From Escherichia coli (GTDB taxonomy: Bacteria; Pseudomonadota; Gammaproteobacteria; Enterobacterales; Enterobacteriaceae), in assembly GCF_003334385.1 (NCBI RefSeq), contig NZ_QOWN01000137.1: DNA of 986 nt, one strand, 5' to 3'. How positions within the stretch are numbered: position 1 is the stretch's first letter; each line of letters starts with the position of its first letter. Below the pieces are notes generated by a model. The model made no database searches. It saw nothing but the letters and a program-made list of their open reading frames with translations, and had not been told where the DNA came from. Shown here one piece after another: positions 1-986 of this stretch. The position numbers were made by a program, and so were the translations under genes.

Positions 1-986
1 GGGCCTGCATCACCTTTGGGACCAGCTGCACCAGCCGGTCCCCGTGGGCCTGCGGGCCCCACTGCACCAGGTGCGCCAGGTTCCCCCCTGTCCCCCTTCG
101 GTCCGGGGACTGCTGCCCGGGTTGCTGCCTCTTCTGCCTTCGTTTTTGCTGCCTGCACTTCTGCCATTACCGCTTTCACAGCCTTTGGGGTTGCCGCTTT
201 TGTTTCATCATCGCTGTTGGTATCGCTGCTCAGCTGTACAACACCTTTCTGTGATGTGCTGGCATCCGGAACACTGGCGACACTGCCTGCGGGACCCGCA
301 GGACCTGCGGGGCCGGTTTCTCCCCGAGGGCCTGCGGGACCTGCCGGACCTGTTGCGCCGGGTTCACCTTTATCCCCTTTCGGGCCGGTTTGCCCTGCCG
401 GACCCTGTGGTCCGGGTGGTCCGGCCTCTCCACGTGGGCCGGTGTCACCTTTCGGCCCCGGCGGTCCGCCCGGGTCACCTTTATCGCCCTTCGGTCCCTG
501 TGGACCTGTTTCTCCCCGTTCTCCCTTTGGCCCCGGCTCACCTTTTGGTCCGACCGCCCCCGTTGCCCCGGCTGGTCCCTGTGCCCCTGTGGCACCCTGT
601 GGACCTGTGTCCCCCTTCTCGCCCGCCGGTCCCCGGGCATTCTCTGCCCGTTTCTTCGCTTCCTCTGCACTCGCCGCCGACGCTTCAGCACGCTTCAGGA
701 TTTCCGCTGCCACCGCTTCCAGCTCTGCAAGCGCTTTCGGGTAATACTGCGCCTCATCCTGTTCCATCAGAAATTTATTCAGCGTTCCCGGCTCAGAATC
801 CGCCTTCACCAGAATGTCACCCACATACGACGGGGCGTACCCTTCCGTGTTCAGCGTCACCCGGTACCACCCCGGCTCCACATCAAAACTGTAACTGCCG
901 GTTTCCCCCGGCTGCCCCTGCGCCACCGTGGTGACTATCACTGTCTCTGTGGTGCGTCGCGCTTTCAGCTCTATGGTGCATCCCGG
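1..986 (-). CDS. stf: Phage side tail fiber protein, Stf-like, with collagen-like Gly-X-Y repeats; internal fragment, partial at both ends (N-terminus lies beyond position 986, C-terminus beyond position 1)
   Basis: Minus-strand frame with codons complementing 984-986 down to 3-5 is open for all 328 codons; I checked it codon by codon. Translation N to C: [328 protein letters not shown]. The N-terminal part resembles, from memory, the N-terminus of phage lambda Stf (CTIQLKARR...SQPGTLNDFL), and the VQLSS...AATPKAVK motif is the phage tail-fibre repeat signature. Codon usage (CTG Leu, AAA Lys, GAA Glu) is enterobacterial. The symbol stf is a family-level assignment, not a specific orthologue. 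No search was run. Confidence 0.92.
3..104 (-). repeat. Collagen-like Gly-X-Y repeat tract 2 (residues 295-328), at least 11 triplets, continuing beyond the window start
   Basis: [34 protein letters not shown] has perfect Gly periodicity from G295 to G328 and is truncated by the window edge. Confidence 0.88.
105..164 (-). other. Region encoding a short Ala/Lys/Glu-rich helical spacer (residues 275-294)
   Basis: [20 protein letters not shown] lies between the fibre repeat and the second collagen tract. Helix prediction is from composition only. Confidence 0.4.
165..254 (-). other. Region encoding a phage tail-fibre repeat motif (Phage_fiber_2-like), residues about 245-274
   Basis: [30 protein letters not shown] closely matches the conserved repeat remembered from lambda Stf and related fibres ([25 protein letters not shown]). 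Identified by eye, not by HMM. Confidence 0.75.
285..632 (-). repeat. Collagen-like Gly-X-Y repeat tract 1 (residues 119-234): 18 plus 20 triplets separated by a single extra Gly
   Basis: Gly occurs at every third residue from G119 to G170, then GG at residues 173-174 (+ coordinates 465-470) shifts the register by one, and periodicity continues from G174 to G234. X and Y positions are rich in Pro, Ala, Lys, Glu, Thr and Gln, typical of bacterial and phage collagen-like sequences. Confidence 0.9.
633..776 (-). other. Region encoding an Ala/Glu/Lys-rich predicted alpha-helical linker, possibly trimeric coiled coil (residues 71-118)
   Basis: Sequence [48 protein letters not shown] has a strongly helix-favouring composition with no Gly or Pro except one Pro. 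Helix or coiled-coil assignment is an inference from composition only. Confidence 0.5.
777..986 (-). other. Region encoding the conserved N-terminal tail-fibre domain (Phage_fiber_N-like, tail-attachment end), residues 1-70 of the window translation
   Basis: Residues [68 protein letters not shown] resemble the lambda Stf N-terminal region as I recall it. Composition is beta-rich and not collagen-like, and this DNA is less GC-biased than the collagen tract. The lambda comparison suggests the true start codon is roughly 15-20 codons beyond position 986. Confidence 0.75.

What the first reader, a model, noticed from the sequence alone, without database searches (positions are those of the whole stretch)
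465..470. Single-residue register break (Gly-Gly) inside the collagen tract
The sequence [11 protein letters not shown] inserts one extra Gly between two otherwise perfect runs of 18 and 20 triplets. In collagens, such one-residue interruptions create a local kink or flexible hinge. In a fiber this could be a functional hinge. Alternatively, since the three plus-strand bases 465-467 are exactly one Gly codon, it could be a single-codon insertion in this isolate or assembly.
Basis: seen in the sequence. Interest (0 to 1): 0.3.

Follow-up and report, generated by a model that had tools for sequence, protein, structure and literature searches.

The report
Known Gly-Gly break in phage fibre collagen
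The extra glycine is a real, inherited break in the collagen-like shaft of an E. coli prophage side tail fibre. This conserved motif was already described in 2012, and whether it acts as a hinge has never been tested.

Summary
The gene lies on the minus strand. Plus-strand bases 470-465 read GGC GGA, giving Gly-Gly. Upstream are 18 perfect Gly-X-Y triplets; downstream are 20 perfect triplets plus GSV.

The window is part of a 520-aa side tail fibre (Stf-like, EPclC architecture) of an Eib-carrying lambdoid E. coli prophage.

The artefact reading is refuted:
- The 76 nt around the break occur without gaps in 39 complete E. coli genomes and in isolated phages.
- The peptide G-D-P-G-G-P-(P/Q)-G-P-K-G-D is kept in a second fibre lineage, where the local DNA is only about 60-67% identical and the Gly codons differ.

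Ghosh et al. [quoted passage not shown] Their table lists the P-EibA homologue, which is 99% identical to the window. By current nomenclature this is a G0G interruption.

What I add: in this lineage the break always follows exactly 18 triplets, while the downstream run varies from 6 to 52 triplets. In most sibling fibres the collagen simply ends at the same P-G-G-P. Mosaic breakpoints lie just 3' of it. So it marks the end of a conserved tail-proximal module.

A hinge function is plausible but untested, and variants without the break exist. Novelty: already known. Interest is low.

The parts
465..470 (-). The Gly-Gly pair (GGC GGA), a G0G interruption. Residues 173-174 of the window protein, 190-191 of the full protein.
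   Evidence: the Pfam Collagen hits split at 190/191
456..479 (-). [quoted passage not shown]
   Evidence: Literature: PMC3368898.
444..491 (-). Extended context [16 protein letters not shown]. Two KGD triplets lie directly N-terminal of the break and one lies C-terminal. These are candidate salt-bridge clamps.
   Evidence: One search gives the positions: 3 of the 8 K-G-D/E triplets of the tract lie within 16 residues of the break. The enrichment of KGD/KGE around interruptions in viral collagen-like proteins comes from PMC11923368.
471..632 (-). Collagen module A: 18 perfect G-X-Y triplets (54 aa, about 15 nm if triple-helical). Its length is invariant in this lineage.
   Evidence: The N-side is 18 triplets in all close lambdoid relatives that carry the break.
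279..467 (-). Collagen module B: 20 perfect triplets plus GSV (63 aa, about 18 nm). Its length varies among relatives from 6 to 52 triplets.
   Evidence: From nt 525 of the minus-strand query onward, the DNA is 97-100% identical to fibres of a different phage type.
636..986 (-). Prophage tail fibre N-terminal domain (PF08400), cut at the window edge. It is the collar domain that attaches the fibre to the tail.
   Evidence: E 2.4e-42; residues 1-91 match the Ur-lambda gpStf collar chain of 9E7M/9MGH, E 4.8e-29. Structural role from PMC12617516.
633..746 (-). Short Ala/Glu-rich, presumably helical segment ([38 protein letters not shown]) between the collar domain and the collagen. It overlaps the C-terminal end of the PF08400 match.
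   Evidence: Sequence. Its helical nature is inferred by analogy with the PCoil region of PMC3368898; no coiled-coil predictor was run.
135..260 (-). Phage tail fibre repeat (Phage_fiber_2, PF03406) separating the two collagen domains.
   Evidence: E 8.7e-16, residues 260-301 of the full protein
3..104 (-). Start of the second collagen domain (11 triplets plus G), which runs off the window.

Best explanation
The Gly-Gly is a genuine, inherited G0G interruption with the motif G-x-P-G-G-P-x-G. It sits in the first collagen-like domain of a trimeric side tail fibre (Stf homologue, EPclC architecture) of an Eib-carrying lambdoid E. coli prophage.

Shown:
- It lies at the C-terminal edge of a conserved tail-proximal module: collar domain, short helical segment, then exactly 18 triplets.
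- In most sibling fibres the collagen stops at this same P-G-G-P and the Phage_fiber_2 repeat follows.
- In this fibre a second collagen module of variable length is joined there instead.
- The sequence downstream of the motif is exchanged by recombination with fibres of another phage type.

Inferred:
- All three chains of the homotrimer shift their Gly register by one residue at the same level. A regular triple helix therefore cannot run through this point.
- The two rods (about 15 nm and 18 nm) are probably separate helices joined by a short, locally loosened and probably flexible joint.
- The flanking imino acids and K-G-D triplets would stabilise and re-nucleate the helix on each side.
- Whether that flexibility is selected for, for example for fibre reach or orientation during adsorption, is not established.
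For: Reality:
- 100% match to a complete genome, and 99-100% matches in phages and genomes.
- The 76-nt core is gap-free at >=99% in 39 complete genomes.

Protein identity:
- Pfam finds PF08400, two Collagen hits and PF03406.
- PHROG 366, tail fiber.
- The gene follows gpJ and precedes a DUF4376 gene, which the PhiR5_1 record annotates as a tail fibre assembly protein.
- The N-terminal 91 aa match the solved Ur-lambda Stf collar.

Conservation with codon turnover:
- The Gly-Gly codons are GGC GGA, GGG GGG or GGA GGG in different lineages, with mostly third-position differences in the flanking codons, while the residues G-D/E-P-G-G-P are kept.

Fixed position:
- There are 18 triplets N-terminal of the break in all close relatives, including P0014, whose 18 triplets differ in sequence. 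The C-terminal run ranges from 6 to 52 triplets.

Module edge:
- Among the 120 best 90%-identity clusters, 96 have 18 triplets followed by G-GPD-ATTAQKG (Pf2), and 18 continue as collagen.
- P0008 lacks exactly the 18 triplets plus the G.
- L007 is identical to the window up to about 21 nt past the Gly-Gly and then diverges. L009 and L010 become 97-100% identical from one codon after it.
- The phi24B preprint independently notes the same sharing of the collagen shaft between phage types.

Literature:
- The motif is described as conserved, and P-EibA ORF-401 and ECED1_2081 (520 aa; Col 118, 117) are listed as EPclC.
- G0G nomenclature and the KGD/KGE enrichment around interruptions.
Against: - No structure or EM locates a bend at this motif. 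The documented hinge in the family lies elsewhere.
- Three of the 21 close clusters with this type of fibre (P0007, P0008, P0009) and about half of the divergent relatives bearing the collar domain have uninterrupted collagen. The break is therefore not required for such a fibre. It is unknown whether those copies are functional.
- Much of the conservation among the closest relatives is simply recent common descent at about 99% DNA identity.
- Conservation at a module junction could reflect recombination history rather than selection on mechanics.
Confidence: 0.6

Rival explanations
1. Neutral historical seam. The Gly-Gly is only the scar left where a collagen cassette was joined to the original end of the first collagen module (P-G-G-P). 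The trimer tolerates it because it is short and is flanked by stable triplets. It contributes nothing to fibre function.
For: - The same P-G-G-P ends the collagen in 96 of the 120 best clusters.
- Recombination breakpoints lie next to it.
- Variants without it exist.
- No functional data were found in the literature searched.
Against: - The motif is kept in at least two lineages with diverged DNA and different numbers of upstream triplets: 18, 22, 26, 27, 28 and 30.
- G0G breaks recur periodically in unrelated giant collagen-like proteins, and Pro precedes the Gly-Gly in 15 of 32 cases against a 5% background. This looks like a reused structural element rather than a one-off scar.
Confidence: 0.33
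2. Sequencing or assembly artefact, or a private single-codon insertion of this isolate.
For: The region is GC-rich and repetitive, which is error-prone in principle. One old Sanger record (AF151091) does carry a unique 3-nt difference elsewhere in the tract.
Against: - The segment is identical in 39 complete genomes from different laboratories and platforms, and in independently sequenced phages.
- It is present with different codons in other lineages.
- It was published as a conserved motif in 2012.
Confidence: 0.01
3. Specific recognition or processing site. The exposed P-G-G-P loop could be a docking point for another virion or assembly protein, for example the DUF4376/Tfa-like product encoded downstream, or a proteolytic site, rather than a mechanical joint.
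For: Only indirect: the local sequence is strongly conserved, beyond the two glycines, over about 12 residues.
Against: - No evidence of processing or binding was found.
- PMC11923368 notes that K-G-D/E triplets seldom appear in collagen binding sites.
- The same motif occurs at the collagen end in siblings that have different downstream domains.
Confidence: 0.05

Closest known systems
EPcl proteins (EHEC prophage collagen-like proteins), EPclC architecture; Ghosh et al. 2012, PLoS One 7:e37872
   Same: - Same domain order: PfN, Col1 with a single G-X-P-G-G-P-X-G interruption, Pf2, Col2, and a C-terminus that is not PfC.
- The paper's Table 3 lists P-EibA ORF-401, which is 99% identical to the window.
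- It also lists ECED1_2081 (520 aa, Col 118 and 117), which matches the length and collagen lengths of the full protein here.
   Different: Nothing essential. This copy comes from another E. coli strain. The paper did not report the fixed 18-triplet position, the use of the same P-G-G-P as a collagen end in sibling fibres, or the adjacent recombination breakpoints.
Bacteriophage lambda side tail fibre gpStf (Ur-lambda; PDB 9E7M/9MGH)
   Same: - Homologous N-terminal collar domain (residues 1-91, E 4.8e-29).
- Same gene position after J.
- Trimeric, hinged side fibres that speed adsorption.
   Different: According to the Ur-lambda model, the lambda Stf shaft is built of coiled-coil domains, with a hinge at residues 394-422. 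Here the shaft is two collagen-like rods separated by a Pf2 repeat.
phi24B gp61 / 933W-type lateral tail fibre (EPclB architecture)
   Same: - The collagen shaft, Pf2 and C-terminal part are shared at 97-100% DNA identity from just after the Gly-Gly onward.
- It carries the same G-D-P-G-G-P-Q-G motif.
   Different: - A divergent N-terminal domain and a long Ala/Glu-rich helical-looking segment.
- 28 to 30 triplets before the break instead of 18.
- In the PhiR5_2, PhiR12_3 and JNEC-KY173 loci the fibre gene is not preceded by gpJ; a 'phage adaptor protein' is annotated upstream. phi24B itself is described as related to podoviruses.
Interruptions of the Gly-X-Y repeat in animal collagens and defence collagens (G1G and G4G breaks of type IV collagen; the kinks of C1q and mannose-binding lectin)
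   Same: A local loss of the Gly-every-third-residue rule inside a long triple helix. Such breaks are associated with kinks or flexibility. That association is my own background knowledge plus the statement quoted.
   Different: - This is a G0G break in a homotrimer without hydroxyproline.
- G0G is catalogued, but I found no structural study of it.
- The kink in C1q and MBL was seen experimentally; here nothing has been seen.

Membership tests
EPclC-type prophage collagen-like side tail fibre | N-terminal PfN domain (Pfam PF08400) | tested here: met
   residues 1-134, E 2.4e-42; matches the Ur-lambda Stf collar
EPclC-type prophage collagen-like side tail fibre | Two collagen (Gly-X-Y)n domains separated by a Pf2 repeat (PF03406) | tested here: met
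   (Collagen hits, PF03406 at 260-301). Col1 is 118 aa and Col2 about 117 aa.
EPclC-type prophage collagen-like side tail fibre | C-terminal region without homology to PfC (PF06820) | tested here: met
   no PF06820 hit on the full 520-aa protein at E <= 10.
EPclC-type prophage collagen-like side tail fibre | Long PCoil domain (about 109-116 aa) often missing | tested here: inconclusive
   Only about 38 Ala/Glu-rich residues lie between the collar fold and the collagen. No coiled-coil prediction was run.
EPclC-type prophage collagen-like side tail fibre | Encoded in a prophage tail module, after the J gene and before a tail fibre assembly gene | tested here: met
EPclC-type prophage collagen-like side tail fibre | Forms a trimer with a collagen triple helix | not testable with these tools
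   Shown experimentally only for EPclA, and partly for EPclB, in PMC3368898.
Conserved G-X-P-G-G-P-X-G (G0G) interruption of EPcl Col1 domains | Two adjacent Gly flanked by runs of perfect triplets, with a one-residue shift of register | tested here: met
Conserved G-X-P-G-G-P-X-G (G0G) interruption of EPcl Col1 domains | Pro immediately before and after the Gly-Gly | tested here: met
   G-D-P-G-G-P-P-G
Conserved G-X-P-G-G-P-X-G (G0G) interruption of EPcl Col1 domains | A single interruption, located in the first of two collagen domains | tested here: met
   Col1 has one break. Col2 of this protein has none.
Functional collagen hinge (as in C1q or mannose-binding lectin) | A bend or increased flexibility observed at the interruption | not testable with these tools
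   No structure exists. The collagen shafts of related fibres are unresolved or aggregated.
Functional collagen hinge (as in C1q or mannose-binding lectin) | The interruption is retained across homologues | tested here: inconclusive
   It is retained in several lineages with codon turnover. It is absent from P0007, P0008, P0009 and about half of the divergent collar-bearing relatives.

The most novel reading that the evidence does not exclude
The P-G-G-P G0G motif might be a dedicated, selected element with two roles. First, it could be a mechanical swivel between two collagen rods. Second, it could be a conserved junction next to which fibre cassettes are swapped between lambdoid siphophage side fibres and 933W/phi24B-type lateral fibres. 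The same kind of G0G joint might be used periodically in giant bacterial collagen-like proteins.
Probability: 0.2. Interest if true: 0.35.

Novelty: already known. Interest (0 to 1): 0.12.

Why it matters
This matters little beyond housekeeping. The result removes an apparent anomaly: the break is not an error and not a private mutation. It assigns the window to a described family of prophage tail fibres.

The modest open point is mechanical. No one has shown what a G0G break does to a triple helix. These fibres are a natural homotrimeric system without hydroxyproline, and isogenic variants with and without the break occur in nature, so the question could be tested in them.

The module-edge pattern is also useful for anyone engineering chimeric tail fibres, because it suggests a junction that nature itself uses.

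Tried and rejected
- The exhaustive representative search with the collar, Col1 and Pf2 regions was swamped by giant collagen-rich proteins. Only about 14 of the 150 hits carried the collar domain. I used the remainder as a background census of break types instead.
- A literature search for the PhiR12/PhiR5 phage records found no paper.
- A search for structural work on 'G0G' found only the 2025 nomenclature paper.
- I did not run structure prediction. The tool folds a single chain, a collagen triple helix needs three, and the output (confidence and secondary structure) could not show a kink.
- I considered reading the junction as Gly in an X position (G-G-P triplet). I rejected this because the register stays shifted for all 20 downstream triplets. 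In contrast, the in-register G-P-G-G-V-Q and G-G-R cases in relatives show no shift.
- I considered whether the absence of other register breaks, despite many length changes, proves selection. I rejected this as uninformative, because misalignment of 9-nt repeats favours in-register events on mechanistic grounds alone.
- The long plus-strand ORFs (242 and 296 aa) were dismissed as antisense shadows of the collagen-coding repeat.

Full report
**What is in the window**

The only frame open across all 986 nt is frame 0 of the minus strand. It encodes 328 residues with no start or stop inside the window.

The window matches a complete E. coli genome at 100% (strain 2018-166, NZ_CP075632.1). It matches several isolated phages (PhiR12_1, _2, _4, PhiR5_1) and prophage P-EibA at 99-99.9%. 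In the 100% match the gene is a 520-aa 'prophage tail fiber N-terminal domain-containing protein'. It lies directly after gpJ. It is followed by a DUF4376 gene, which the PhiR5_1 record annotates as a tail fibre assembly protein, and then by a YadA-like (Eib) gene.

Pfam finds these domains on the full protein:
- phage_tail_N (PF08400) at residues 1-134
- two Collagen hits at 135-190 and 191-249
- Phage_fiber_2 (PF03406) at 260-301
- no PfC domain

PHROGs gives tail fibre families. Residues 1-91 match the solved collar domain of the Ur-lambda side tail fibre (9E7M/9MGH, E 4.8e-29). In that structure, twelve copies form a collar on the tail and carry four trimeric, hinged side fibres (PMC12617516). 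So the N-terminus is the end attached to the virion, and the collagen tract is the proximal shaft.

**Checking the observation**

Plus-strand 465-470 (TCCGCC) reads GGC GGA on the coding strand. This encodes Gly173-Gly174 of the window protein, or residues 190-191 of the full protein. Before it are 18 perfect G-X-Y triplets (plus-strand 471-632). After it are 20 perfect triplets plus GSV (279-467). The register shifts by one residue and stays shifted, so the break is real in the sequence. Pfam's two collagen hits split exactly at this point. The only correction is that the gene is on the minus strand.

**Artefact or real?**

The 76 nt centred on the break occur gap-free at >=99% identity in 39 complete E. 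coli genomes. The same peptide, [15 protein letters not shown], is present in six full-length variants whose downstream collagen differs through recombination or triplet indels.

A second fibre lineage has a divergent N-terminal domain (PhiR5_2, PhiR12_3, strain JNEC-KY173; 645-663 aa). It carries [14 protein letters not shown] after 28 to 30 triplets. Around the motif, the DNA of that lineage is only about 60-67% identical to the window. The Gly-Gly codons are GGG GGG there instead of GGC GGA, and the flanking codons differ mostly at third positions. An assembly error or a private insertion is therefore excluded.

**It is already described**

Ghosh et al. 2012 (PMC3368898) defined the EPcl family of prophage collagen-like proteins. 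[quoted passage not shown]

Their Table 3 lists P-EibA ORF-401 as EPclC. It also lists ECED1_2081 as EPclC, at 520 aa with collagen lengths of 118 and 117. That is the architecture and size of the protein here. In the nomenclature used by PMC11923368, loss of both X and Y from a triplet is a 'G0G' interruption.

**What the comparison adds**

1. Position. In every close relative with the lambdoid collar domain, the break follows exactly 18 triplets. This includes P0014, whose 18 triplets differ in sequence and whose motif is G-A-P-G-G-P-P-G. The run after the break varies: 6, 12, 14, 18, 20, 21, 22, 23, 25, 27 or 52 triplets.

2. Collagen end in siblings. Among the 120 best 90%-identity clusters, 96 have the same 18 triplets followed by G-GPD-ATTAQKGIVQL. 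In those fibres the collagen ends at P-G-G-P and the Pf2 repeat begins. Eighteen clusters continue as collagen after the Gly-Gly. Three lack the break through in-register deletions. One of these (P0008) has lost exactly the 18 triplets plus the G.

3. Mosaic breakpoints next to the motif.
   - L007 is identical to the window up to about 21 nt past the Gly-Gly and then diverges.
   - The PhiR12_3 and JNEC-KY173 fibres become 97-100% identical to the window from one codon after the Gly-Gly onward. PhiR5_2 does so from about 36 nt before it.
   - The phi24B preprint independently notes that its gp61 collagen shaft and C-terminus are shared with lambdoid lateral fibres.

Together these results place the Gly-Gly at the C-terminal edge of a conserved proximal module. 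Variable cassettes are attached downstream of that edge.

**Is G0G unusual?**

No. I examined 147 collagen-rich representatives from the exhaustive search, covering 26,404 triplets in strict runs. They contain 32 G0G breaks and 22 one-residue non-Gly insertions. Fifteen of the 147 proteins have at least one G0G. Two giant proteins have them periodically: P0195 has 14, mostly GDPGGAS, often 24 triplets apart, and P0137 has six, five of them GPAGGAT. Pro occupies the position before the Gly-Gly in 15 of 32 cases, against 5% Pro at Y overall. These counts are inflated by repeats within single proteins.

**Mechanism**

Shown: the register shift is the same in all three identical chains. The break is flanked by Pro on both sides. 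Two K-G-D triplets lie immediately N-terminal of it and one lies C-terminal. PMC11923368 reports that K-G-D/E triplets are enriched around interruptions, most strongly in viral collagen-like proteins. That paper proposes that their salt bridges help the helix fold and stay folded across breaks.

Inferred: a regular triple helix cannot pass through a one-residue register shift. The shaft is therefore probably two rods, about 15 nm and 18 nm long, taking 0.286 nm per residue from general knowledge of collagen. They would be joined by a short, loosened and probably flexible segment.

Not shown: that the joint bends, or that any bending matters.
- The hinge seen by EM in this family was at the coiled-coil/collagen junction of EPclA, which has no Gly-Gly.
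- rEPclB, which does have the motif, aggregated and was not mapped.
- The phi24B collagen shaft is unresolved.
- PMC11923368 states that the structural consequences of interruptions that change the chain offset are not understood.
- Relatives without the break exist.

I rate the 'real, conserved, module-edge G0G that locally interrupts the helix and probably adds flexibility' reading at about 0.6. I rate a purely neutral seam at about 0.33, a recognition or processing site at about 0.05, and an artefact at about 0.01.

**Verdict**

The artefact alternative is refuted. The conservation is supported here and was already published. The hinge remains an untested inference. Novelty: already known. 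Interest: low.

Noticed in passing
L002 (AF151091.1, P-EibA orf-401), CDS 1208-2647; corresponds to window plus-strand about 418-435: The 2000 GenBank record reads GEAGPRPQG where all other sequences read [10 protein letters not shown]. This is a 3-nt deletion that creates a second break and restores the original Gly register. It is unique among roughly 275 sequences inspected, so it is probably a sequencing error in the old record or a private mutation. It explains the Col1 length of 117, rather than 118, in Ghosh et al.'s Table 3.
   Followed up: partly
window plus strand 16-744 and 44-934; minus strand 230-691 (frame 1): Long ORFs of 242, 296 and 153 aa overlap the fibre gene. They are rich in Pro, Gly and Arg, and are the expected stop-free shadows of a GC-rich collagen-coding repeat, not genes.
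   Followed up: partly
L008-L010, codons for P-G-G-P (for example L008 CDS residues 313-316): In the second fibre lineage the Gly-Gly is encoded within CCG GGG GGG CCT. This run of seven G is prone to slippage, yet the reading frame is intact in all three records.
   Followed up: no
L006 (NZ_CP053284.1, strain SCU-104), CDS region 1950-3480: This copy of the fibre gene carries an in-frame stop (GPQ to GP*) in the second collagen domain and is annotated as two pseudogene pieces. It keeps the Gly-Gly and has a module B shortened by five triplets.
   Followed up: partly
P0195 (2341 aa) and P0137 (2028 aa): These giant collagen-like proteins of unknown origin carry periodic G0G breaks. P0195 has 14 in all, mostly GDPGGAS, often 24 triplets apart. 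P0137 has six, five of them GPAGGAT. This suggests that G0G is a reused element of repeat units in long prokaryotic or viral collagens.
   Followed up: partly
L001 8906-10231 (downstream of the window's gene): A YadA C-terminal domain (Eib-type immunoglobulin-binding) gene lies two genes after the fibre gene, as in prophage P-EibA. The phages PhiR5_1, PhiR5_2 and PhiR12_3 have a putative adhesin/invasin gene or an unnamed gene at the same place.
   Followed up: no
P0023-P0030 and relatives, second collagen domain: The sibling fibres carry G-P-A-G-P-G-G-V-Q-G in Col2. This is a Gly-Gly that does not shift the register (Gly at the Y position), so it is a look-alike that must not be counted as a G0G break.
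   Followed up: yes
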